64,000 nucleotides of DNA, taken from NCBI GenBank assembly GCA_028909515.1, contig GCA_028909515.1_4811.1; one strand, given 5' to 3'. Below the pieces are notes generated by a model. That model worked only from the letters and a program-made list of their open reading frames with translations, ran no database searches and was not told the origin of the DNA. The stretch comes from a phage. A program made the translations under genes and the position numbers. This document shows, piece by piece, positions 48,727-63,845 of the stretch (position 1 is the stretch's first letter; each line of letters starts with the position of its first letter).

Positions 48727-48885
48727 TGTTGACGTAAATTTACGAAAAATAAAACTGAAAATCAGTTTAATTAAAGTGGCATTGCCGCCATAGTTTTTAG
48801 TTGCTACTGGCGGCGACTGAAGGCATAATTAAGTTATCCCAAACGGGGAATATAAAATAAACTAATTTATTTAAGGACTGTGAAT

Positions 48886-49725
48886 ATGGCCGAAGCAATC
48901 AAAGTATTATCTAAAGAAGAAAAACAAGCAGCCGCAGCAGAACGTCGTCGCGTGGCTGAAGAAAAACGCCTGGCTAAAAAGAAAGAAGCCGAAGAAAAAC
49001 GCCAGAAGCGTGAGCAGGAAAAACAAGCCAAGCGTGAAGAAGCTGCGCTGAAACGCAAGCAGGCTGCTGATGAGAAGGCTCAGAAGCGTGCTGAAGAAGC
49101 AGCTAAGAAAGCTAAAGAGCGTGCAGAAAAGGCTGCTGCTAAGAAAGCAGAGCGTGAAGCCGCTAAAGCAGCAAAAGAAATCGAAAAGGCAAAGGCTAAA
49201 GAAGAAGCCAAGCGCCTGAAAGCTGAGCAGGCTGCGGCCAAGAAAGCAGAGCGTGATCAAGCCCGTGCTGCAGCGAAGGCCGAAAAAGAGAAGGCCAAAG
49301 AAGAAGCTAAAGCGAAACGCAAGGCAGAGCGTGAAGCTGCTAAGATTGCGGCGAAAGAAGCTGCAGAACAGCAGAAAGAACAGCGTAAGAAAGAAGCTGA
49401 AGAACGTCGCAAAGCCATCGCAGAACGTAAGGCTGCTAAAAAGGCAAACGGTCAGCGTCGTGCAAAAGCCACTCACTTCATCTACACTGGCAATGGCCTG
49501 AGCCAGCCGCAAGAGCATTCCACCCGTGGACGCGTTCTGGCGGCGATCAAAGAAGGCGAAGTTGGCGTGGCGCAGTCTATCGATGAGCTGGGCGAAAAAG
49601 TTAAAGATCAACTGTTTGGCGCTTCCGTTCGCTCCTACCTGAGCAAGCTGGAAGAGATGGGCCACATCGAGTTTGTCGATGTTGAATCCAACGGCGATGC
49701 CGAAGACGGTGATCAAGCGGAATAA
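48886..49725 (+). CDS. Charged Glu/Lys/Ala/Arg-rich protein with a globular C-terminal domain
   Basis: ATG at 48886 with an AAGGA site (track begins at a GTG, 48880). About 190 aa of KAAK/EEKR low-complexity sequence, then an ~80 aa non-repetitive tail. Confidence 0.55.
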   Translation: MAEAIKVLSKEEKQAAAAERRRVAEEKRLAKKKEAEEKRQKREQEKQAKREEAALKRKQAADEKAQKRAEEAAKKAKERAEKAAAKKAEREAAKAAKEIEKAKAKEEAKRLKAEQAAAKKAERDQARAAAKAEKEKAKEEAKAKRKAEREAAKIAAKEAAEQQKEQRKKEAEERRKAIAERKAAKKANGQRRAKATHFIYTGNGLSQPQEHSTRGRVLAAIKEGEVGVAQSIDELGEKVKDQLFGASVRSYLSKLEEMGHIEFVDVESNGDAEDGDQAE

Positions 49726-49857: not shown

Positions 49858-50853
49858 ATGAACATGAAACAACCTGTAATGATTATCGGCGGCGGACTGG
49901 CAGGACTTATCACCGCGTGTCACTTCCCGAACTCTATTGTGTACGAAGCAGGGGAACGAGCGCAACAGCACAAGGCACTGCTACGCTTTCGCGGCGAAGA
50001 AGTAAGCCGTATTACCGGAATCCCTTTTAAGGCCGTGACAGTTGACAAGGCTGTGTATTTTCGCGGTAACTACTACCACGACCATTGCCCAATCAACCTT
50101 GCCAATATGTATTCCATGAAGGTCACCAATCAGTTTGGCAGTCGTTCAATCATGAAGCTTAAAACTGCAACGCGTTATATTGCGCCTGATGACTTTTATG
50201 ATCAGCTTGTCGACAAACTGGGTGACCGCATATTCTTTAATACTCCGGTTGATACTCTTTGCGGCTATAGCGAGACGCCAATCATCAACACGTCGCCGCT
50301 GCCAGTAATGATGAAGCTTGCTGGGATTGATCAAAAGCTTGATTTCTCATTTGATAAAGCAAACATTCGCGTTTACCGCTTTAAGATTAAACGTAAGTGT
50401 GATTTGTATCAGACAATTTACTTCCCTGACTACTCCGTCAGAACTTACCGCGCATCAATTACTGGTGACACGCTTATCATTGAAACAATTCCTTTGGTCA
50501 GCGTGAGTGAAGCTGCAGTTGAAGCCGCTGGCGGCATCACCCGTTATCGCGACATGAAGCTGCGCGCGGAAGTGGACGAAGTTCTGACCGCTTTTGGTCT
50601 TTCATGGAATGACATCTCTTTGGAAGAAGTTGAAAAGGTTGACCAGAAGTATGGCAAGATTGTAGACATTCCGAAAGACTTGCGACACGCCTTACTGCTC
50701 CAGCTGACTATGGATTTGAACGTATTCAGTGTTGGCCGATTCGCTACATGGCGCAACATCTTGCTTGATGACGTAGCTCATGACCTTGTTGAAGTTGAAA
50801 AACTCATCAAAGCAAATAACTATCAAAAATTTGCTTATATTGCTAATAAATAA
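49858..50853 (+). CDS. FAD/NAD(P)-binding oxidoreductase-like protein
   Basis: 331 aa. N-terminal Rossmann motif VMIIGGGLAGL. Exact family not resolved. Confidence 0.5.
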   Translation: MNMKQPVMIIGGGLAGLITACHFPNSIVYEAGERAQQHKALLRFRGEEVSRITGIPFKAVTVDKAVYFRGNYYHDHCPINLANMYSMKVTNQFGSRSIMKLKTATRYIAPDDFYDQLVDKLGDRIFFNTPVDTLCGYSETPIINTSPLPVMMKLAGIDQKLDFSFDKANIRVYRFKIKRKCDLYQTIYFPDYSVRTYRASITGDTLIIETIPLVSVSEAAVEAAGGITRYRDMKLRAEVDEVLTAFGLSWNDISLEEVEKVDQKYGKIVDIPKDLRHALLLQLTMDLNVFSVGRFATWRNILLDDVAHDLVEVEKLIKANNYQKFAYIANK

Positions 50854-50918: not shown

Positions 50919-51365
50919 ATGAAACGAATCACTGGAATCGCGCTTGCCGCGACTGCTATTCTCGGCACCATGTATATGGAAGCGACTGAAGCCGCCGTCC
51001 GTACTTCCGATTCAATCGCTGTTTACGATTGTGAAGCGATGGACGGTAAGACCGCAGCAACGACTGGTGCGAAGATTACCACTTACATCGGTGTGAATGA
51101 GCAAGAAGGTCTGAATATTCAGATTCAGGGATTCACGGGAAAAGGCGCCAACCGGACTCCGTGGATGCAGCGTTTCACTTTCGTTCAACCTCGTTCAACT
51201 GGCGCCTTTATCAACCTGATTGGTGAAAACCGTTCTGGTGCAGAAATCTTTACATCAATGAGTTCCAATAATGAACCAAAGAAAAGTTTTCAGTTGCTTT
51301 ATAACGCACAATTCGTTTATCATTGCACCTTCTCTGGTGATCAGCAACTAGTTAACTACCGTTAA
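50919..51365 (+). CDS. Secreted or periplasmic protein
   Basis: 148 aa. Signal-peptide-like N-terminus MKRITGIALAATAILG. Confidence 0.5.
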   Translation: MKRITGIALAATAILGTMYMEATEAAVRTSDSIAVYDCEAMDGKTAATTGAKITTYIGVNEQEGLNIQIQGFTGKGANRTPWMQRFTFVQPRSTGAFINLIGENRSGAEIFTSMSSNNEPKKSFQLLYNAQFVYHCTFSGDQQLVNYR

Positions 51366-51378
51366 TAGGATAATTAAA

Positions 51379-52182
51379 ATGAAAGTTGAATTAATTCGAT
51401 ACACCCAAGATGCACTTGACCTTTTGCTGGAAACAAAGAACACGCGCATGACTGGTAAGCCAGTCTCTGAGATGACAGAATCAGAGAAGCAAGAGCACTG
51501 GCGATACATGCTTGACACAATCAAGTCGCCTTTTGATTTTGTGGACTATATCTTTGACATCACTGATGTATCAAAGAATATGACTCATCAGATGGTGCGC
51601 ACGCGCACAGGTGCATATCAAGAACGTACAAGCCGCGCTCAGGAATCTTCTGCTTTTGATGCGATTCGTCCTGCCAAATTTACTTACCCAGAGGATGATC
51701 CAAAGGGATGGACTCGTCATGACGAGAAGGCTGCTGAACTGGCAGAGAAATGGGATGATGCGATGGCCACGATTGACGCCCTCTACCAAGAGCTTCGCGC
51801 GGCTGGCGCAGAGATTCAAGATGCACGTGCCGTGTTGCCTTCTAATATGCAAACGCATATCATGGCAAAGTTCAACTTGCGAACGCTGCAACAGATGGCG
51901 TCAAACCGCTTGTGCACGCGCACCCAAGGCGAGTATCAGGAAGTTTTCCGTGCGATGGTAGCTGAAGTCCTCAAGGTGCATCCGTGGGCTAATCCTTTAC
52001 TACAGCCGCAATGCATCGGCATGGGCAAGTGCGCATTCCCTCGCCATGGCAAGGCCCATTGCCCTTGGTATCGTGATTGGATGGATACCACTGCACAGCA
52101 AGAAGAATTACGCATCCAGTTTTGGAATGCAATGCCAATCACCAATAATCCGGTTGCCAAAGATGGAGTATCAAAAGGATGA
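51379..52182 (+). CDS. ThyX-like protein (flavin-dependent thymidylate synthase fold) with altered signature motif
   Basis: 267 aa. C-terminal ARAVLPSNMQTHIMAKFNLRTLQQMASNRLC resembles ThyX. The canonical RHR...S motif position reads VRTRTGAYQERTS. Confidence 0.55.
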   Translation: MKVELIRYTQDALDLLLETKNTRMTGKPVSEMTESEKQEHWRYMLDTIKSPFDFVDYIFDITDVSKNMTHQMVRTRTGAYQERTSRAQESSAFDAIRPAKFTYPEDDPKGWTRHDEKAAELAEKWDDAMATIDALYQELRAAGAEIQDARAVLPSNMQTHIMAKFNLRTLQQMASNRLCTRTQGEYQEVFRAMVAEVLKVHPWANPLLQPQCIGMGKCAFPRHGKAHCPWYRDWMDTTAQQEELRIQFWNAMPITNNPVAKDGVSKG

Positions 52183-53051
52183 GCATTAAAAACAGCGAAA
52201 TCTTAAACGTATTCGACCTTGACGGAACGCTGTTTGATGACCGTTGGCGCTTAGACCGCATCAAGGTGGCAGGTCCGTTGTCAGACTATGATGACTATCA
52301 CAGCGGTATTGGTTATGATCAGTTCTATCCTCACATTGCATCAGCAGTAGAGTCGGCATCTCTTCGCGGTGAGGCGGTTGAATATTGGACTGCAAGGCCA
52401 GAAAAATACAGACAAGTGACTTTTGAACGTCTGGACAATGTTTTCCCTTTTGATGAATTTACAATCAAGATGAGAGACTATGGCGACAAACGTCCATCAA
52501 CTATCATGAAATCTGCATGGCTATCGCACGCATTGCGGCACGGTGATTATCGAATCATCAATGTATTCGACGACCGACAAGACGTACTCGCGCGGATGCA
52601 AGATGAAGCATTGTATTATAATTCCGTTGCTCAAAATAAAATCGCTTTTACATTTAATCTTTGCAAGGCAGGTGAAGTGGTGCAACAATTAGCAATTGAT
52701 CCAAGCGCAACAGGGCAAGAAGAGACTAAGGCTGTGGAAGTTGAACAATCTCCGGCAACTGCCGCCGATATTCTTGATGCAATGGCAGCAACCTTCCGTG
52801 AGCGCAACGCTGTCTATGGCGATAACGCTGTGATGGTAGGTCAGGTTATGCAGGTGCTTTTCCCTAATGGCGTAACGTTGAAAACGCCGGAAGACTACCA
52901 CATGTGGCATCTGTTCGAGCTTAAGATTGTCAAGCTTACACGCTTTGCAATCAGCGGCCTGAAGCACGAAGACTCTATACACGATGATGGTGTTTACAGC
53001 GCCATGTGTGAACGTCTTGTAAACACCCATAATATTAATTTCAATAAATAG
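52179..53051 (+). CDS. HAD-family phosphatase fused to an unassigned C-terminal domain
   Basis: 290 aa. Motif I LNVFDLDGTLFDD and motif IV INVFDDRQD in the N-terminal ~150 aa. Confidence 0.55.
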   Translation: MSIKNSEILNVFDLDGTLFDDRWRLDRIKVAGPLSDYDDYHSGIGYDQFYPHIASAVESASLRGEAVEYWTARPEKYRQVTFERLDNVFPFDEFTIKMRDYGDKRPSTIMKSAWLSHALRHGDYRIINVFDDRQDVLARMQDEALYYNSVAQNKIAFTFNLCKAGEVVQQLAIDPSATGQEETKAVEVEQSPATAADILDAMAATFRERNAVYGDNAVMVGQVMQVLFPNGVTLKTPEDYHMWHLFELKIVKLTRFAISGLKHEDSIHDDGVYSAMCERLVNTHNINFNK

Positions 53052-53095
53052 TTTACTTGTGCGTTTCGATGAGTTATATTTACCTCATCGAAACG
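53052..53095 (+). promoter_or_regulatory. Sigma70-like promoter with an 11-12 bp inverted repeat straddling the -10
   Basis: TTTACT, 17 nt spacer, TATATT. CGTTTCGATGAG pairs with CTCATCGAAACG. The leader TCATCGAAACGAA recurs at 59915. Confidence 0.45.
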
Positions 53096-53116: not shown

Positions 53117-53800
53117 ATGAAAAAAGTAATTGTTGTAACAGGTTCCAATTCCGGTCTTGGTAAATCTATTTTTGACACCCTTGGCGCTTACGGTCATAAC
53201 GTGCTTGGCATCGATTCAGCATACGGATATGACGTCCGCGATGCTAAACAGATGAAAGAAATTTTAAGCCCATATGATGTTGAAGGCTTGATCAACTGTG
53301 CTGGTGTCAACTCTAACAACTGGTTCGAAGATGTTAACTACGAAGAGTTCAATCGCGTTATGCACACCAACGCCTTCTCTTTCGTCAACACGACTCAGGC
53401 CGCGCTGAAAAGTCTTATCGACAACAAAGGCTTTGTGATCAACATCGTTTCCAACGCTGCGCATATTCCTATGACGTCCAGCTTGTGTTATAATGCATCC
53501 AAGGCTGCTGCGCTTATGATCAGCAAGCAGATGGCTCACGAACTTACGCCTAAGTACGGCATCACGGTATTCTCTATTAGTCCTAACAAGTTGCGCGGCA
53601 CTGGCATGTCTAAACAGATTGAAGATGCCGTTTGTGCGACTCGCGGCTGGACTCCTGAATACGCTGCTGAATACCAGAAAAAGGCATTGATGAATGGATT
53701 GGAGACTGAGCCGCAAGTAATTGCCGACTTCATTCGCCATATCTTAATTACGGGCGCATGGCGCTTTATGTCTGGCACTGATATTCCATTTGGTAAATAA
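53117..53800 (+). CDS. Short-chain dehydrogenase/reductase (SDR) family oxidoreductase
   Basis: 227 aa. Motifs VIVVTGSNSGLGKS, NCAG and catalytic YNASK. Confidence 0.75.
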   Translation: MKKVIVVTGSNSGLGKSIFDTLGAYGHNVLGIDSAYGYDVRDAKQMKEILSPYDVEGLINCAGVNSNNWFEDVNYEEFNRVMHTNAFSFVNTTQAALKSLIDNKGFVINIVSNAAHIPMTSSLCYNASKAAALMISKQMAHELTPKYGITVFSISPNKLRGTGMSKQIEDAVCATRGWTPEYAAEYQKKALMNGLETEPQVIADFIRHILITGAWRFMSGTDIPFGK

Positions 53801-53896
53801 ATCACGAACATTTTAAGTTGTCACACCCGCTCCTGAAAAGAAACAGGACGAAGACAACACAGTAATTAATCAATAATATTTAATTAAGGAAACAAA

Positions 53897-54448
53897 ATGC
53901 CACATTTTAAAATTGAACAAATCGCCCTGTCAATTCCAGATGCTCAGCGCGCACAGGATTTCTTGGCTAAAATCGGCCTGACGGAATGGTTCCATGATCA
54001 TGTTGTTGCTACTGGTCGCGTATTTGAAGCTGATGACTTTAAAGGTCGTCGCGACGATTGCACCAATGAAGCTGACTTGCGCTTCAACTATCAGGCTGGC
54101 AACGGTACTGATGGCGGCGCTGGTAAGCCTCTTGAGCTTGAAATACTTGACTACACAATGGGCTGCAACTGGATTAACGAAAACATCGAATATATCGATG
54201 CGCATGACAATCAGGTCAGCCACCTTGGCATGCATGTGACTGCCGCTGAACTTGCTGAATGGCGTAAGTTCTTTAGCGAAGAAGGCATTCAGGTTGCACA
54301 GGAAGTTGTAACTGACTCTCATACCAACCCGAACATTGCTGGTCAACGTCGTTACAACTATGTGATCTTTGATACGCGTGAAATCATCGGTGTTGATTTG
54401 AAGTTTATCGTGCGCTTGAATCAAGACGGTACTCCGTACACTGTATAA
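53897..54448 (+). CDS. Hypothetical protein, possibly glyoxalase/VOC-like
   Basis: 183 aa. N-terminal KIEQIALSIPDAQRAQDFLAKIGL pattern. Weak assignment. Confidence 0.35.
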   Translation: MPHFKIEQIALSIPDAQRAQDFLAKIGLTEWFHDHVVATGRVFEADDFKGRRDDCTNEADLRFNYQAGNGTDGGAGKPLELEILDYTMGCNWINENIEYIDAHDNQVSHLGMHVTAAELAEWRKFFSEEGIQVAQEVVTDSHTNPNIAGQRRYNYVIFDTREIIGVDLKFIVRLNQDGTPYTV

Positions 54449-54502: not shown

Positions 54503-55045
54503 GTGTTATTTCTCCCTTATGACTTCGAAACAACCGGATTGACCGTGCACCCGAAAGCGCCGCTTGGGATGCAGCCGCGCCCTATTGAATTTGCAGGTCT
54601 GTTGACAGACGGCAAAGAGATTCTTGAAACGTTTGAATTCATAATTAATCCTGAAATCGTGATTGAAGAAATTATCACAAAGATTACCGGATTAACAAAT
54701 GAAGACCTTGAGTGCAATCCACCATTCATCAATTTCGTCCCGCAGCTAAAAGAAATCTTCAAGAAGACTGATGCAACTATCGCGCACAACCATGCGTTCG
54801 ATAAAAACATTCTTGATTATGCACTACAGCGCGAAGGACTTACGCTTGATGATGTTAATTTTCCAGAAATAAACATATGTACAGTTGAGCAAACCTTGCC
54901 TATTTTTGGCCGAAGAGTTAAGCTTCAAGAGCTGTATGAATTATATTTCGGAAAATATGAACAGAAGCACCGTGCATTAGACGACGTAATATTACTGCAC
55001 AAAGTCTGCCAACAAATTGGCGTATATGACATCTGGAGTAAATAA
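54503..55045 (+). CDS. DnaQ-like 3'-5' proofreading exonuclease
   Basis: 180 aa. GTG start with AGGAGG site. Exo motifs LPYDFETTGL, AHNHAFDKNIL and HRALDDV. Stop overlaps the polymerase start. Confidence 0.8.
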   Translation: MLFLPYDFETTGLTVHPKAPLGMQPRPIEFAGLLTDGKEILETFEFIINPEIVIEEIITKITGLTNEDLECNPPFINFVPQLKEIFKKTDATIAHNHAFDKNILDYALQREGLTLDDVNFPEINICTVEQTLPIFGRRVKLQELYELYFGKYEQKHRALDDVILLHKVCQQIGVYDIWSK

Positions 55046-57942
55046 TGTTTCCACAATTGAGAGTTCGCAGCGGTTACACGTTCAAAGAAGTTTATGGACG
55101 GCATCCTGAAATTATAGCACGGCTCAAAGAGTTGGGCTGCGAAGTCGCGGCATTAGTTGATAACAACACATGGGGTCACGTCCGCTGGGAAAAGGAATGC
55201 CAGAAAAATGATATTAAGCCTATGTTTGGGATGGAGATTCCAATCATCGACCCTGATGCGGACCCTAAAAAGGGATTCAAACCGAAGGCTTGGATATTGG
55301 CCCTTGACTTAAAATCTTTTTACAACGCTACGACACTTGCAACGCAGCGTGGTGGCCTTACCCGTGCAGAGTTCGGTGCGCTTGATGGCGTCGTTAAATT
55401 CTGTGGCGGTGCCGTTGAGCTGCTGCGGCCAGAGGACTACGATTATATAGACGTCAACCCATCATCGTTCCTTTTGGCTAAGCGCCAGGTGTTGGCTCAC
55501 CGCAGCAACGGAAGGCCGCTGGTTTTAACCGGATACAACCACATGCCTTCACCTAAGCACGTTGACTTTGCTTATGCTTGGGAAGTGCGCGACACGGTCA
55601 AGCCGCACTGCATCGTTGACGCGGAAGACTTGCGCAAACAGCTTAAAGGCATCTTGACTGAAGATGAGCTCAATCAGGCAACGGCCAATGCTGTTGACAT
55701 AGCAAACGGCATAGTCGGACTTGACCTGAAATTGCGTAAGGCACCGATTATTCACCTTGCTGGTGACATGGTAAAGCTTGCTCGCGAGGGGATGGAGTAT
55801 CGTCTCAAAGCAGGTCACATCAAAGAGTGGACTCAGGAATATGAGGACCGCTTCAACGAAGAAATTCACCAGATTCAGCTGAAAGATTTCGACTCATACT
55901 TTCTGGTAGTAGCGGACCTTGTACGATTCGCAAAAACAAAAATGCTCGTCGGGCCTGCTCGCGGCTCATCGGCTGGTTCACTTGTTTGCTATTGCCTCGG
56001 CATCACGGAAGTGGACCCAATCCCGTATAAGCTGCTGTTTGCCCGATTCATCGACGTAAGCCGCGCCGACCTTCCTGACATCGACATCGACTTTGAAGAT
56101 ACCAAACGCTACATGGTGTTTGATTATCTTAAAGAGAAATATGGCGAAATGAACGTTGCAAAGCTTGGCAACATCAACACGCTTAAGGCCAACTCAGTAA
56201 TGGCGCAGGTTGGTAAGAAGTTCAACATTGGATACCACGAAACGGCCAACATTAAAAACGCACTGCTTGAATACTCATCCGGTGACGCCCGTTATGGTCA
56301 CGGCCTGGAGGATACCTTTGCAACAACGACCACGGGCCAAGAGTTTGTGGCGAAATATCCTGACGCCGCGCGTTGCATGGGTGACCTTGAGATTCACCCG
56401 TCTCACACAGGTGTTCACGCAGCGGGAATCATTGTGTGTAATGACCCAATCTCTGATTACTGTACTGTAACTGCAGAAGGGATTGCGCAAATCGATAAGC
56501 CTGACAGCGAATACCTAAACCTTTTGAAGCTTGATGCGCTGGGCCTTCGTACTCTCGGAATCATTTCTGATACTGGCGTGATAGATGCTGAAACGCTGTA
56601 CGGAATCAAGCTTGATGACCAAAGCGTCCTTGACATCCTTAACGAAAACAAGATGTCAGGCATCTTCCAGTTTGAAGGCGACGCTGTACGCTCAGTAACC
56701 AACTTTGTGCACGTTGATAACTTTAACAAAATCGATAACCTGACAGCACTTGGCCGACCTGGCCCGTTGTCGTCCGGTATGGCCCAGAAATACATTGAAC
56801 GCGCGGCAGGACGTGCGCCGATTGAGTACGACGTGCCGCAGCTTGAGCCGTACTTAAAAGAGACTTACGGCGTGTTTCTTTACCAAGAGCAAATCATGGC
56901 CGTGGTTAAAGAGATTGGTTCATTTGACTGGGCGAAAACATCCGCTGTACGTAAGGCGATGTCAGGTCGTAAGGGTGAGGAATACTTTAACAAGCTTGGC
57001 GAAGACTTCGTTGCAGGAGCAATAAATAACGGCGTACCGGAAGCGGATGCAAGAAAGCTTTGGCAAGCGATGGCGACGTTCGGGTCATGGGGCTTTAACA
57101 AGTCACACTCCGTATCATACGCGGTCGTGACCTACTGGACCTTGTGGCTTAAGCGACACTACCCGTTGGAATTTGCCGCTGCTTGCTTACGCGCTGCTAA
57201 GGACGAAGACCAGACGATTGCGATATTACGTGAACTTGCGAAGGAAGGCGTGGATTATGTGCCAATCGACCCTGATCACTCTTCAATGAACTGGACCATC
57301 GCTAACGGAAAGCTAATCGGCGGCATCATGAACGCAAAAGGATATGGCATGGTGAAGGCAATGAAGTATATCGAAGCACGTGAAGCCGGAACCTTAACGC
57401 AAAAGCAAAAGGATGCATTGGCCAATGCTGAAGTCAAATACGGCGACCTTACAGAGATGCACACAAAGTTCGGATGGGCATATAATGACCCCTATCTGAT
57501 TGGCGTTACTTCCGGTGCTTCAATACGCCAGATGAAGGAAGTCGGCGATGACGAGCGTGCAATAGTGATCGGCAAGTTGACCAAGAAAGTGCTGGCTGAC
57601 GAGAACGAAGCGACACGCATCCGTAAACGTCTTGAGCGCGGCATTTATACAAAGCACGGCAAACTTAAAAAGGGTCTTCAAGCTGATGGCCGCTACGCAG
57701 AGTTTGACCAGTATGGAAACAAGCTTGAGACTCAGTTCATTGACCTTATGTGCAAGGACGATTCGACCGACTCGCCAATGCGCTTCAGGATTCGTCCAGA
57801 GAAGTTCCAGAAATACGGGAAATACATTGCAGAGAACGTCGGGAACGGCGCATTCTTCCTGATGAAAGGCCGCAAACTTGAAGGCATTGACATGTTCATC
57901 GTCGACGTTATCAAACAGGTGTATCCAGATGGCAACAAATAA
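55045..57942 (+). CDS. DNA polymerase III alpha-like (DnaE family) replicative polymerase
   Basis: 965 aa. Catalytic LPDIDIDFED and SYAVVTYWTLWLKRHYPLEFAAACL. N-terminus QLRVRSGYT sits where PHP domains carry a His-x-His metal site. Confidence 0.8.
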   Translation: MFPQLRVRSGYTFKEVYGRHPEIIARLKELGCEVAALVDNNTWGHVRWEKECQKNDIKPMFGMEIPIIDPDADPKKGFKPKAWILALDLKSFYNATTLATQRGGLTRAEFGALDGVVKFCGGAVELLRPEDYDYIDVNPSSFLLAKRQVLAHRSNGRPLVLTGYNHMPSPKHVDFAYAWEVRDTVKPHCIVDAEDLRKQLKGILTEDELNQATANAVDIANGIVGLDLKLRKAPIIHLAGDMVKLAREGMEYRLKAGHIKEWTQEYEDRFNEEIHQIQLKDFDSYFLVVADLVRFAKTKMLVGPARGSSAGSLVCYCLGITEVDPIPYKLLFARFIDVSRADLPDIDIDFEDTKRYMVFDYLKEKYGEMNVAKLGNINTLKANSVMAQVGKKFNIGYHETANIKNALLEYSSGDARYGHGLEDTFATTTTGQEFVAKYPDAARCMGDLEIHPSHTGVHAAGIIVCNDPISDYCTVTAEGIAQIDKPDSEYLNLLKLDALGLRTLGIISDTGVIDAETLYGIKLDDQSVLDILNENKMSGIFQFEGDAVRSVTNFVHVDNFNKIDNLTALGRPGPLSSGMAQKYIERAAGRAPIEYDVPQLEPYLKETYGVFLYQEQIMAVVKEIGSFDWAKTSAVRKAMSGRKGEEYFNKLGEDFVAGAINNGVPEADARKLWQAMATFGSWGFNKSHSVSYAVVTYWTLWLKRHYPLEFAAACLRAAKDEDQTIAILRELAKEGVDYVPIDPDHSSMNWTIANGKLIGGIMNAKGYGMVKAMKYIEAREAGTLTQKQKDALANAEVKYGDLTEMHTKFGWAYNDPYLIGVTSGASIRQMKEVGDDERAIVIGKLTKKVLADENEATRIRKRLERGIYTKHGKLKKGLQADGRYAEFDQYGNKLETQFIDLMCKDDSTDSPMRFRIRPEKFQKYGKYIAENVGNGAFFLMKGRKLEGIDMFIVDVIKQVYPDGNK

Positions 57943-62256: not shown

Positions 62257-62880
62257 ATGAAACAGATTTATGCAAACATTCGCCAGTGGGCTTCTGACCG
62301 TAACATCATCCAAGGTTGCGACCTTAAGGACCAATACCCGAAGCTTATCAGCGAGTTTGGGGAGTTAACCGACCACGTTGATCAACTCCATGACCTTGTG
62401 TTCTTCGACCCTGAAATTGGATATACAGAGCAGGCCATCTGTGACTTGCAAGCTGCAATCAAGGACGACATTGGCGATTGTCTTGTTGTGTTGACCATCC
62501 TGGCGGCGCAAAACGGTACTGAAATCGAAAACATTAATGGCGGCGGTTGTGCTGATAAAGGCGCTCACCCTCATTCATTCATCCTTCGCCTGGCAAAGAC
62601 CCTTGGACGGCTTGGTGATGCTATTGCTAAGAATCAGACCATGGATATTGACGTCACCATCATGGCCGCAGTCGATTACCTTTCCGGCGTAGCTCATGAT
62701 TATGGCCTTCGCTTATCCGACTGTGCGCAAGCGGCCTACGAAGACATCAAGGACCGCAAAGGTGTCATGTACAACGGAACGTTCATCAAATCTACTGATC
62801 CAGCTTATGAGCACTCCTGCAAAATGGTAAAGAAGCTGGAACTTGAAGACCGTGTGATCAGAGAAGTTACAGGACAATAA
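62257..62880 (+). CDS. MazG-like nucleotide pyrophosphohydrolase (putative)
   Basis: 207 aa. Motifs KLISEFGEL and DDIGDCLVVL. Weak assignment. Confidence 0.45.
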   Translation: MKQIYANIRQWASDRNIIQGCDLKDQYPKLISEFGELTDHVDQLHDLVFFDPEIGYTEQAICDLQAAIKDDIGDCLVVLTILAAQNGTEIENINGGGCADKGAHPHSFILRLAKTLGRLGDAIAKNQTMDIDVTIMAAVDYLSGVAHDYGLRLSDCAQAAYEDIKDRKGVMYNGTFIKSTDPAYEHSCKMVKKLELEDRVIREVTGQ

Positions 62881-62882
62881 TT

Positions 62883-63845
62883 ATGACAGCATTAAAACCA
62901 ATGAAGGGTTGCCAACGTAAGCAGATTATCGAGCGCGGCGAGGACGTGCCGCTGCCTTGCGGACTGTCATTCAAGGTCGATGGCATACGTGCAATGGCGT
63001 ATGACAACTTGCCAATGGGCACTTCCGGCATGCCGTTGCGCAACGTTCAAATCAAAAAAGAGTTCCTCTTTTTGGGTGAACTAATTCACGGACTTGATGG
63101 AGAGCTAATCGACGGAAATCCAAATGATAAGAACGTCATGCAACAGGCCTATACTGCATGCATGAATACTGATGCAATCACTAACTTTACATGGTGGGTG
63201 TTTGATGACTTCAGCGACCCTGATCTGCCTTTTGAAAAGCGTTATGCAAACTATCGAGCTAGAGTTGCTGAAGTTAATCAGCATCTCATCAACCATGGTC
63301 GACGCCCATTCCTTCGCGCTCTCGAATATCGAAACATCGAAAATATGGAACAGTACGCGGCGATGCAAATCGAAGCAGACCAGCTTGGATATGAAGGCTT
63401 GTATGGCAAGTCTTGGACGGGCAAATATAAGCATGGCCGCGCGACGCCGAAGTCACGTGATGTGTGGAAGGACAAGCCGTGGACCGATGAAGAAGGGTTG
63501 ATCATAGACTTCGTTGAGATGATGGAGAACAACAACGAAGCATTCATTGACGAATTGGGTCGCACCAAGCGTTCAAAAGAGGCTGAAGGTTTAGTTGCGA
63601 AAGGATACCTTGGCTCATTCGTAGTCGTCAATCCAAAATATGTGGATGAGAAAGGTGAAATGATTCCTTTCCGCGTCTCCGCTGGTTCAATGCCTATGGC
63701 AGAGCGTAAAATGCTTTGGGAGAATCGCGAGAACTATCGCGATAAATACCTAACGTATAAATTCTTTAACTTTGGCATCGTCGACGTGCCGCGCTCTGCT
63801 TTGTATAAATGCTTCCGTGATATTACCGATATGGAGTATTTTTAA
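62883..63845 (+). CDS. ATP-dependent DNA ligase
   Basis: 320 aa. Adenylation motif I FKVDGIR, motif III FLGELIHGLDGEL, motif IV EGLII, motif V WKDKPW. Confidence 0.75.
   Translation: MTALKPMKGCQRKQIIERGEDVPLPCGLSFKVDGIRAMAYDNLPMGTSGMPLRNVQIKKEFLFLGELIHGLDGELIDGNPNDKNVMQQAYTACMNTDAITNFTWWVFDDFSDPDLPFEKRYANYRARVAEVNQHLINHGRRPFLRALEYRNIENMEQYAAMQIEADQLGYEGLYGKSWTGKYKHGRATPKSRDVWKDKPWTDEEGLIIDFVEMMENNNEAFIDELGRTKRSKEAEGLVAKGYLGSFVVVNPKYVDEKGEMIPFRVSAGSMPMAERKMLWENRENYRDKYLTYKFFNFGIVDVPRSALYKCFRDITDMEYF

What the first reader, a model, noticed from the sequence alone, without database searches (positions are those of the whole stretch)
52179..53051. HAD phosphatase fused to an unassigned C-terminal domain
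The N-terminal ~150 aa carry HAD motifs. The C-terminal ~120 aa (NAVYGDNAVMVGQVMQVLFPNGV...YHMWHLFELKIVKLTRF) match nothing I recognise. A two-domain nucleotide-processing enzyme next to the ThyX-like gene may act in the same pathway.
Basis: partly seen in the sequence, partly recalled or inferred. Interest (0 to 1): 0.4.

Follow-up and report, generated by a model that had tools for sequence, protein, structure and literature searches.

The report
Phage phosphatase fused to DUF6378 domain
This E. coli phage gene joins a T4-type phosphatase to a small helical domain (DUF6378) of unknown function; the fusion is common in this phage lineage, is wrongly labelled a "polynucleotide kinase", and always sits beside the phage's thymidylate synthase and DNA polymerase genes.

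Summary
The ORF (52179-53051, +, 290 aa) is real, and the window is a Wifcevirus. Residues 1-175 are a cap-less HAD phosphatase of the T4 Pnkp type, with the catalytic Asp/Arg/Lys/Asp-Asp set intact. There is no kinase domain, so the database label "polynucleotide kinase/phosphorylase" is wrong.

Residues 195-283 are not a HAD cap. They form a confident four-helix bundle after a flexible linker. The bundle is a divergent member of Pfam DUF6378, a large phage family of unknown function. The window's own copy does not reach Pfam's threshold, but its close homologues do.

The fusion is widespread (Pbunavirus, Wifcevirus, Rhizobium jumbo phages). In related metagenomic phages the two halves are separate, overlapping genes in the same order: ThyX, HAD, DUF6378, SDR, exonuclease, DnaE.

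DUF6378 or the structurally similar Nmad1 lies next to ThyX or a DNA polymerase in unrelated viruses. My best reading is a two-module nucleotide phosphohydrolase of the DNA-precursor module (confidence about 0.4).

Homology to MazG or DUF5664 pyrophosphatases was tested and not supported. A role in the recently found Pbunavirus thymidine hypermodification is possible but untested.

This is a new member of a known but uncharacterised family, of moderate interest.

The parts
52179..53051 (+). Whole gene: HAD_PNKP-type phosphatase fused to a DUF6378-like domain (290 aa plus stop)
   Evidence: ORF. PHROG 4889 full-length E 8e-122. 94-97% nt identity in 29 Wifcevirus genomes. AF2 full-length mean pLDDT 89.8.
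52179..52182 (+). ATGA start/stop overlap with the upstream ThyX gene (translational coupling)
   Evidence: Read from the sequence.
52179..52703 (+). N-terminal HAD phosphatase domain, aa 1-175, PNKP/class-B ('DDDD') type, no cap
   Evidence: Pfam PF25109 at 33.5 bits (cut-off 27.6), aa 11-142. Profile A2 against PDB: T4 Pnkp 5uj0/1ltq at E 6e-8 and 1e-6, Pnkp1 4xrp at 3e-7. Rossmann-like beta/alpha pattern in the model.
52215..52229 (+). HAD motif I, D13-L-D15-G-T17 (nucleophile Asp13, general acid/base Asp15)
   Evidence: Read from the sequence. D13 and D15 are invariant in 64 homologues. Most homologues have DxDxC instead of DxDxT.
52569..52574 (+). HAD motif IV, D131-D132 (Mg2+ ligands). 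Equivalent to T4 Pnkp D277-D278.
   Evidence: Invariant. Aligned to the AIDDR segment of T4 Pnkp.
52704..52760 (+). Inter-domain linker, aa 176-194, Glu/Ala/Thr-rich and variable in length among homologues
   Evidence: pLDDT 53-75 in the full-length model, pTM only 0.66. Poorly conserved.
52761..53027 (+). C-terminal DUF6378-like four-helix bundle, aa 195-283. Conserved across the window subfamily and canonical DUF6378: R209, G214, K252, R255, D265, D269, Y273 (G214 nearly invariant in the subfamily).
   Evidence: AF2 pLDDT 87.8, four helices. 29 of 48 close homologues hit PF19905, best E 3.9e-6. hhalign against canonical DUF6378 gives P 0.006 over 87 columns. Foldseek BFVD hits to DUF6378 proteins. 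Conservation.
51379..52182 (+). Upstream neighbour: flavin-dependent thymidylate synthase ThyX, a divergent clade with RTR in place of RHR
   Evidence: Pfam Thy1 E 1.1e-30. Only E 1e-4 to T. maritima ThyX. Clade alignment.
53117..53800 (+). Downstream neighbour: short-chain dehydrogenase/reductase. Part of the conserved block in Wifcevirus and Pam3-like contigs, absent in Pbunavirus F8.
   Evidence: Pfam adh_short E 2.6e-31. Synteny. F8 lacks it.
54503..57942 (+). Downstream replication genes: RNase_T-type 3'-5' exonuclease (54503-55045) and DnaE-type DNA polymerase (55045-57942). These close the conserved block.
   Evidence: Pfam RNase_T E 9.6e-22. ORFs. Same order in L001-L015 and in F8.

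Best explanation
The gene encodes a two-module phosphohydrolase that belongs to the phage's DNA-precursor and replication gene block.

Shown:
- Module 1 (aa 1-175) is a cap-less HAD phosphomonoesterase of the T4 Pnkp / class-B acid-phosphatase type. It has an intact catalytic set: Asp13 nucleophile, Asp15, Thr71, Lys111, Asp131/132, plus the two substrate-phosphate arginines, Arg24 and Arg73.
- Module 2 (aa 195-283) is a DUF6378-type four-helix bundle joined by a flexible linker.
- The two modules are fused in this lineage and are adjacent, overlapping genes in relatives.
- There is no kinase domain.

Inferred:
- The residues conserved across the DUF6378 family (2 Arg, 1 Lys, 2 Asp, 1 Tyr, plus Asn/His in this subfamily) lie at the C-terminal ends of helices 1 and 3 and the N-terminal ends of helices 2 and 4. 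In an up-down bundle these positions would all sit at one apex. I therefore infer a single polar pocket suited to binding a phosphorylated ligand, with or without a metal.
- Module 2 most likely supplies nucleotide binding or specificity, or a first (pyro)phosphate-cleaving step. The cap-less HAD module, acting with it, would then remove the remaining phosphate.
- The enzyme would act on deoxynucleotides around the ThyX step or for the adjacent DnaE polymerase, as pool shaping or 'house-cleaning'. It would not phosphorylate polynucleotides.
For: HAD assignment and catalytic residues.

No kinase: there is no Walker A motif in the sequence and no kinase family hit.

Independent folding of the C-terminal domain.

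DUF6378 membership.

Fusion versus split genes with 4-nt overlaps in the same synteny (ThyX-HAD-DUF6378-SDR-x-exonuclease-DnaE). Of the 150 best 50%-identity cluster representatives, at least 85 are HAD fusions and 29 are stand-alone.

Nucleotide-metabolism context in viruses that appear unrelated:
- Rhizobium jumbo phage RHph_Y65 has ThyX ... HAD-DUF6378, dUTPase and RNR subunits.
- Faecalibacterium phage FP01 has ThyX immediately followed by a DUF6378 protein (PMC13432834).
- Asgard wyrdviruses carry dUTPase-ThyX-Nmad1. An Nmad1 protein is among the Foldseek neighbours of the model.
- phiVC8 has a DUF6378 protein at the end of the PurZ/DatZ operon.
- Canonical DUF6378 genes lie just upstream of the UDG-like/PolA genes in ~45-kb phage contigs.

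Precedent: another small phage domain, DUF5664, was recently shown to be a dNTP pyrophosphohydrolase (PMC12884076).
Against: No biochemical data exist for any DUF6378 protein.

The window's own domain does not reach any Pfam threshold.

The EExxE...ExxD metal motif of MazG-type enzymes is absent.

hhalign against DUF5664 gives only P 0.04 over 27 columns.

The closest solved relatives of the HAD half act on nucleic-acid 3' ends.

A phosphatase acting on dUMP or dTMP next to ThyX would seem counter-productive.

Much of the synteny comes from one broad phage lineage, so it is not fully independent evidence.

The apical clustering of conserved residues is deduced from helix boundaries, not from coordinates.
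Confidence: 0.4

Rival explanations
1. It is a nucleic-acid end-healing enzyme. The HAD module would remove 3'-phosphates (or 2',3'-cyclic phosphate products) from nicked DNA or cleaved RNA, as T4 Pnkp does. This would prepare ends for the phage DNA ligase or polymerase. DUF6378 would be a non-kinase accessory domain for substrate or partner binding, or for oligomerisation.
For: The best solved relatives of the HAD half are T4 Pnkp and Pnkp1 of an RNA-repair complex. The two arginines equivalent to T4 R176 and R213 are invariant. The domain has no cap, as is typical of HADs that act on macromolecules. In Caulobacter phage Percy a DUF6378 protein directly follows a metallophosphatase, with a DNA ligase three genes further on. 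The window encodes an ATP-dependent ligase at 62883-63845.
Against: There is no kinase module and no RNA ligase, so the healing-and-sealing set is incomplete. The position of T4 D254 (essential in T4 by my recollection, not checked here) is Ser in the window and in the family consensus. The gene lies with ThyX, and in the Rhizobium phage with dUTPase and RNR, rather than beside the ligase. The invariant charged residues of DUF6378 look more like a small-ligand site than a nucleic-acid surface (inference).
Confidence: 0.25
2. It is part of a thymidine-nucleotide exclusion or thymidine hypermodification pathway. Pbunavirus DNA carries a hypermodified T, and the responsible genes are unknown. The ThyX-like enzyme and the HAD-DUF6378 pair would then clear dTTP/dTMP, as hydroxymethyl-uracil phages do. 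Alternatively they would trim a phosphorylated sugar or base intermediate.
For: Pbunaviruses F8 and 14-1 have about a quarter of their T replaced, in TG context, by derivatives of mass 362 and 390. No known modification genes were found in them (PMC12191111). [quoted passage not shown] The fusion and a divergent ThyX (RTR in place of RHR, Tyr91 equivalent lost) are conserved in both genera. A pyrophosphatase plus a phosphatase is the enzyme pair reported for thymidine-nucleotide exclusion in hmU phages (my own knowledge, not tested here).
Against: There is no direct link: nobody has mapped the modification genes. The fusion also occurs in many uncharacterised metagenomic phages and in Rhizobium jumbo phages with a normal-looking dUTPase/RNR set. 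ThyX scores as a solid Thy1 family member at E 1e-30. Three quarters of T remain unmodified in Pbunavirus. The SDR neighbour is absent from F8, which carries the sugar-alcohol adduct.
Confidence: 0.15
3. The C-terminal region is only a structural appendage or cap of the HAD domain and has no function of its own.
For: It is fused to a HAD domain that lacks a cap. Helical bundles are a common cap architecture (general knowledge).
Against: HAD caps are inserted between motifs I-II or II-III. This domain follows motif IV behind a disordered linker. It occurs as a free-standing gene, sometimes separated from the HAD gene by three ORFs. It also occurs in phages with no adjacent HAD gene. Its invariant residues are polar or charged.
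Confidence: 0.05

Closest known systems
Phosphatase domain of bacteriophage T4 polynucleotide kinase/phosphatase (Pnkp; PDB 1LTQ, 5UJ0), Pfam PF25109
   Same: Cap-less HAD fold. The DxDxT nucleophile motif is present. Equivalents of T4 D165, D167, R176, S211, R213, R246, K258, D277 and D278 are conserved. Profile E 6e-8 to 1e-6.
   Different: There is no P-loop kinase domain, and the phosphatase is N-terminal rather than C-terminal. The position of T4 D254 is Ser. An extra ~12 residues with invariant Y40 and D47 lie between motifs I and II. The partner domain is DUF6378. The genomic context is ThyX and the polymerase, not an RNA ligase.
DUF6378 (Pfam PF19905) stand-alone phage proteins, e.g. 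Brucella phage Tb gp48 and Vibrio phage phiVC8 p22
   Same: About 80-residue helical domain with the same ordered motifs: ER..(Y/H)G, K..R, D...D...Y. hhalign gives P 0.006 over the full length. Close homologues of the window domain hit the Pfam model.
   Different: The window subfamily has its own invariant residues (N216, FPxG 228-231, H244, E247, H263, S266). It scores at or below the Pfam cut-off, and the window copy does not score at all. It is mostly fused to, or adjacent to, a HAD phosphatase.
Small phage dNTP pyrophosphohydrolases: DUF5664 (PF18909), DUF550, MazZ/MazG
   Same: Small helical phage proteins encoded in nucleotide-metabolism or polymerase modules. DUF5664 shows a superficially similar motif order: (K)Y..N(W/Y), L.R(H/F)A, D....H..AV.
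Nmad1 / DUF1599 (PF07659) proteins in viral ThyX operons
   Same: Small helical viral proteins encoded next to ThyX, as in the dUTPase-ThyX-Nmad1 block of Asgard wyrdviruses. One Nmad1 protein is a Foldseek neighbour of the model at E 0.027, reported probability 1.00.
   Different: No sequence-level match to PF07659 was found in any scan. Nmad1 function is also unknown.
Class B acid phosphatases / nucleotidases (AphA; Pfam PF03767)
   Same: Related HAD phosphatases. They give weak profile hits (2i33 at E 0.014), and several homologues carry precomputed PF03767 hits. They hydrolyse 5'- and 3'-mononucleotides (general knowledge).
   Different: They are periplasmic, tetrameric, much more distant in sequence, and have no DUF6378 partner.

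Membership tests
HAD superfamily phosphatase | Motif I DxDx(T/V), motif II S/T, motif III K/R, motif IV DD or DxxxD on a Rossmann-like fold | tested here: met
   D13-L-D15-G-T17, T71, K111 and D131-D132 are all invariant in 64 homologues. The AF2 model shows an alternating beta/alpha pattern.
PNKP-type phosphatase domain (Pfam PF25109) | Score above Pfam's gathering threshold | tested here: met
   33.5 bits against a cut-off of 27.6 for the full protein, and 35.4 bits for aa 1-170.
PNKP-type phosphatase domain (Pfam PF25109) | Conservation of the residues essential in the T4 Pnkp phosphatase (D165, D167, R176, R213, D254, D277, D278; this list comes from my recollection of the T4 mutational literature) | tested here: inconclusive
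   Six of the seven have equivalents: D13, D15, R24, R73, D131 and D132. The position aligned with D254 is Ser107, and Ser is also the family consensus.
Polynucleotide 5'-kinase (the database annotation 'polynucleotide kinase/phosphorylase') | P-loop NTPase domain with Walker A GxxxxGK(S/T) | tested here: not met
   The 290-aa sequence contains no Walker A motif, and not even a GK dipeptide. No kinase family appears in Pfam or NCBIfam. The PHROG 'kinase' families match only the HAD part, aa 9-152.
DUF6378 (Pfam PF19905) | Match to the Pfam model at or above the gathering score of 27.1 bits | tested here: not met
   The window's own domain has no hit at E<=1. Close homologues (50-64% identical) score 16-27.5 bits, and only one of the ten listed individually passes the cut-off.
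DUF6378 (Pfam PF19905) | Homology shown by other means: transitive hits, profile-profile alignment, shared ordered motifs, fold neighbours | tested here: met
   29 of 48 subfamily members hit PF19905 at E<=0.01, best 3.9e-6, covering profile positions ~10-79 of 81. hhalign A1 against A3 gives P 0.006 over 87 columns, with R, G, K, R, D, D and Y aligned. Foldseek BFVD returns DUF6378 proteins at reported probability up to 1.00.
All-alpha NTP pyrophosphohydrolase (MazG/HisE/dimeric dUTPase) superfamily | Four-helix bundle carrying the EExxE ... ExxD metal-binding motif, and structural similarity to solved members | tested here: not met
DUF5664 / dGTP_diPhyd_N (PF18909) dNTP pyrophosphohydrolases | Sequence or profile homology to the family | tested here: inconclusive
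   No PF18909 hit in any Pfam scan. hhalign against a 12-sequence DUF5664 alignment gives P 0.04 over 27 columns for the window subfamily and P 0.18 for canonical DUF6378. The motif resemblance is only a lead.
HAD cap domain (C1/C2) | Inserted between motifs I-II or II-III of the core, and not found as an independent protein | tested here: not met
   The domain follows motif IV after a low-pLDDT linker. It is encoded as a separate gene in many phages.

The most novel reading that the evidence does not exclude
The conserved ThyX(RTR variant)/HAD/DUF6378 unit is part of the still-unidentified pathway behind the hypermodified thymidine of Pbunavirus-like phages, and behind the unexplained restriction resistance of Wifcevirus. 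DUF6378 and the HAD module would either clear dTTP/dTMP from the pool or process a phosphorylated intermediate of the modification. DUF6378 would then be a new class of nucleotide phosphohydrolase or specificity subunit.
Probability: 0.15. Interest if true: 0.75.

Novelty: new member of a known kind. Interest (0 to 1): 0.4.

Why it matters
The fusion is carried by Pbunavirus, which includes some of the most used therapeutic Pseudomonas phages, and by its E. coli relatives. It is systematically mislabelled as a polynucleotide kinase.

DUF6378 is a large phage family: the window-type profile alone matches about 2,000 clusters at 50% identity. Nothing is known about its function.

The fused-versus-split gene evidence links DUF6378 to a defined phosphatase partner. 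The repeated placement next to ThyX and DNA polymerases narrows the set of substrates worth testing. That makes the domain's function directly testable.

The gene is also a concrete candidate to knock out when looking for the genes behind the newly reported thymidine hypermodification in these phages.

Tried and rejected
1. Direct family assignment of the C-terminal domain with Pfam and NCBIfam found nothing.

2. Sequence and profile searches of the PDB with the protein and with alignment A1 gave only chance hits: ribosomal L14 and the secretin receptor.

4. The AFDB Foldseek library was unavailable.

5. MazG-type pyrophosphatase idea: the motif is absent and there is no structural support, so it is rejected as a membership claim.

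6. DUF5664 homology. This was prompted by a remembered motif resemblance and by the 2026 demonstration of dNTPase activity. I built a 12-sequence alignment from phage records. hhalign gave only P 0.04, so homology is not supported.

7. I asked whether phiVC8's DUF6378 protein is the known MazZ-2. It is not: MazZ-2 lies between purZ and datZ, whereas the DUF6378 gene is p22.

8. I considered that the neighbouring SDR plus the HAD module might make the sugar-alcohol adduct of phage F8. This is weakened because F8 has no SDR in the block.

9. I looked for extra informative domains in unusual architectures and long variants. None were found.

10. Literature searches on DUF6378, Nmad1 and DUF1599 yielded only annotation mentions. 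The Iyer et al. 2013 paper that defined the Nmad domains is not held.
Full report
**What the window is.** The 2.4 kb around the finding is 94-97% identical to 29 phage genomes of the genus Wifcevirus, including vB_EcoM_SP13, F13, WFH, WFC, ECML-117 and BASEL phages Bas98-101. In those records the gene is called 'hypothetical protein', 'phosphatase' or 'polynucleotide kinase/phosphorylase'.

**The observation.** An ORF runs 52179..53051 (+) and encodes 290 aa. Its ATG overlaps the TGA of the upstream ThyX gene as ATGA, which suggests translational coupling.

**N-terminal module**
- Pfam places aa 11-142 in PF25109 (PNKP phosphatase domain) at 33.5 bits, above the 27.6 cut-off.
- A profile of 64 full-length homologues finds T4 Pnkp (5UJ0 and 1LTQ, E 6e-8 and 1e-6) and Pnkp1 of a bacterial RNA-repair complex (4XRP, 3e-7). 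Class-B acid phosphatases follow far behind.
- Invariant residues in the family are D13, D15, R24, Y40, D47, T71, R99, K111, D131 and D132. R73 is nearly invariant.
- Using the printed alignment for R73 onward, and motif spacing for D13, D15 and R24, these correspond to T4 D165, D167, R176, S211, R213, R246, K258, D277 and D278. The position aligned with T4 D254 is Ser107, and Ser is also the family consensus.
- The AF2 model has a Rossmann-like beta/alpha pattern and no cap.
- There is no Walker A motif and no kinase family hit. The PHROG 'polynucleotide kinase' families 415 and 505 match only the HAD part. The 'kinase' annotation is therefore unfounded.
- Most homologues carry DxDxC in motif I, whereas the window has DxDGT.

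**C-terminal module**
- Alone it has no Pfam or NCBIfam hit. Sequence and profile searches of the PDB give only chance hits.
- It does have 447 homologues in the 90%-clustered collection. Most are free-standing proteins of 95-120 aa that are 50-75% identical to it. Many carry a precomputed PF19905 (DUF6378) label.
- Scanning 48 of them, 29 match PF19905 at E<=0.01, with a best E of 3.9e-6. The matches cover nearly the whole 81-position model and score 16-27.5 bits against a cut-off of 27.1.
- For comparison, canonical members such as Brucella phage Tb gp48 reach only about 32 bits.
- Profile-profile alignment of the window subfamily (A1) with canonical DUF6378 (A3) gives P 0.006 over 87 columns. 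The family-wide conserved residues align in register: R209, G214, K252, R255, D265, D269 and Y273.
- AlphaFold2 gives a confident four-helix bundle with pLDDT 87.8.
- In the full-length model both domains are confident (pLDDT 89.8). The linker at aa ~175-195 is not, and pTM is 0.66. This means two independent domains with no fixed mutual orientation.
- The domain is a divergent DUF6378 member, not a HAD cap.

**Size and architecture of the family**
- A profile search of 1.84 billion cluster representatives finds 2,087 clusters at E<=0.001.
- Among the best 150, at least 85 are HAD fusions and 29 are stand-alone. About 30 have short N-terminal extensions, several of them Cys-rich.
- In the phage genome collection the fusion occurs in about 365 records. 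Most are Pbunavirus (292 Pseudomonas-phage records). Others infect Escherichia, Serratia, Rhizobium, Xanthomonas and Pantoea.

**Fused versus split**
- In metagenomic contigs of Pam3-like phages (24-62 kb), HAD (154-160 aa) and DUF6378 (100-158 aa) are separate genes. They often overlap by 4 nt.
- They lie in the same order as in the window: ThyX, HAD, DUF6378, SDR, one unknown gene, RNase_T exonuclease, DnaE polymerase.
- In one lineage three small ORFs separate the two genes.
- In Pbunavirus F8 the fusion lies between ThyX and the exonuclease/DnaE pair, with no SDR.
- This 'Rosetta-stone' pattern argues that the two modules work together.

**Context outside this lineage**
- Rhizobium jumbo phage RHph_Y65 has ThyX, then the fusion, then dUTPase and both ribonucleotide reductase subunits.
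- Faecalibacterium phage FP01 has ThyX directly followed by a DUF6378 protein.
- Asgard wyrdviruses have dUTPase-ThyX-Nmad1.
- Vibrio phage phiVC8 has a DUF6378 protein (p22) at the end of the PurZ/DatZ operon. It is distinct from MazZ-2, which lies between purZ and datZ.
- Canonical DUF6378 genes in ~45-kb contigs sit just upstream of UDG-like and PolA polymerase genes.
- In Caulobacter phage Percy a DUF6378 protein follows a metallophosphatase, with a ligase three genes downstream.
- In Brucella phages it sits in the replication module.
- The common denominator is DNA-precursor and replication functions, with a recurrent ThyX or phosphatase neighbour.

**Mechanism.** The phosphatase chemistry of module 1 follows from the intact HAD catalytic set. 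For module 2 I infer a ligand site as follows.
- The invariant polar residues lie at the C-terminal ends of helices 1 and 3, in the 3-4 loop, and at the N-terminal ends of helices 2 and 4.
- In an up-down bundle these all fall at one apex.
- Two Arg, one Lys, two Asp and one Tyr fit a phosphate site, with or without a metal.
- The best-supported reading is therefore a two-module nucleotide phosphohydrolase. DUF6378 would provide nucleotide recognition or a first cleavage for a cap-less phosphatase.
- I give this 0.4.

**Tests of specific homology**
- MazG-type enzymes: the motif is absent and there is no structural hit.
- DUF5664, recently shown to be a dNTP pyrophosphohydrolase (PMC12884076): hhalign gives P 0.04 over 27 columns only.
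- Neither is supported. 'Works like a small phage dNTPase' remains a hypothesis, and family membership is not claimed.

**Rivals**
- An end-healing 3'-phosphatase with an accessory domain (0.25). It is supported by the T4 Pnkp relationship and the Percy context. It is weakened by the absence of kinase and RNA-ligase partners and by the ThyX context.
- A role in thymidine-nucleotide exclusion or hypermodification (0.15).
- A mere cap or appendage (0.05), which the stand-alone genes contradict.

**The hypermodification lead**
- A 2025 preprint shows that Pbunaviruses F8 and 14-1 replace about a quarter of their T, in TG context, with derivatives of nucleoside mass 362 and 390. The phages carry no recognisable modification genes (PMC12191111).
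- By my own arithmetic, these masses equal 5-hydroxymethyl-dU plus a tetritol or a pentose, minus water.
- The ThyX of this whole lineage is a solid Thy1 member (E 1e-30). It nevertheless lacks the His of the RHR signature and the Tyr91 equivalent.
- None of this proves a link. It does make the ThyX/HAD/DUF6378 unit a reasonable knock-out target.

**Verdict.** The gene is a new (Wifcevirus) member of a widespread, catalogued but mis-annotated and functionally uncharacterised fusion family. Interest is moderate (0.4).

Noticed in passing
window 51379-52182 (+): The ThyX here, and in all compared relatives, has R-T-R (R-N-R in the Rhizobium phage) instead of the canonical R-H-R signature. It also lacks the equivalents of T. 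maritima H53 and Y91. It is nonetheless a strong Pfam Thy1 match (E 1e-30), while only E 1e-4 to solved ThyX structures. The Wifcevirus, Pbunavirus and L014 forms carry a C-terminal Cys-containing insertion (C..G.CAFPR.G...C).
   Followed up: partly
window 53117-54448 (+): An SDR (adh_short, E 2.6e-31) and a 183-aa protein with a weak glyoxalase/VOC-like match (E 0.004) lie between the fusion gene and the exonuclease/DnaE genes. The SDR is conserved at this position in Pam3-like contigs but is absent from Pbunavirus F8.
   Followed up: partly
window 49858-50853 (+): A 331-aa protein starts with a dinucleotide-binding-like motif (VMIIGGGLAGL) but has no Pfam hit at E<=0.01. Proteins of similar size (301-333 aa) sit a few genes upstream of ThyX in F8 and in the metagenomic relatives. 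I did not test whether they are homologous.
   Followed up: no
window 53062-53095: A perfect 12-bp inverted repeat (cgtttcgatgag / ctcatcgaaacg) with a 10-nt loop lies just after the stop codon, between the fusion gene and the SDR gene. No T-run follows it on either strand.
   Followed up: no
window 62257-62880 (+): A 207-aa protein is annotated 'MazG-like pyrophosphatase' in Bas99 and in F8, and lies directly upstream of the ATP-dependent DNA ligase (62883-63845). It has no Pfam hit at E<=0.01. The phage may therefore carry a separate pyrophosphatase in addition to the DUF6378 domain.
   Followed up: no
window 48880-49725 (+): A 281-aa protein has a first ~190 residues made almost entirely of Lys/Glu/Ala repeats (highly charged, low complexity), followed by a short globular-looking tail. 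A long antisense ORF overlaps it and is probably an artefact of the repeat.
   Followed up: no
window 50919-51365 (+): A 148-aa protein with an N-terminal signal-peptide-like segment (MKRITGIALAATAILG...) is encoded immediately upstream of ThyX. It has no Pfam hit.
   Followed up: no
L018 5968-6264 (Vibrio phage phiVC8 p22): The 2-aminoadenine (Z-genome) phage phiVC8 and its relatives VP2, VP5, H1 and JSF15 encode a DUF6378 protein. In phiVC8 it is the last gene of the run that contains PurZ and DatZ. It is not the described MazZ-2.
   Followed up: partly
homologues P0121-P0347: In most HAD-DUF6378 fusions, motif I is DxD(G/N/S)C (126 of 160 recognised). The usual DxDxT form, which the window uses, is the minority.
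   Followed up: no
whole window / genus: The literature reports that Wifceviruses resist all tested RM systems except EcoP1_I with no known protection mechanism. Their Pbunavirus relatives carry a hypermodified thymidine whose genes are unknown. The window may therefore contain unrecognised DNA-modification genes.
   Followed up: partly
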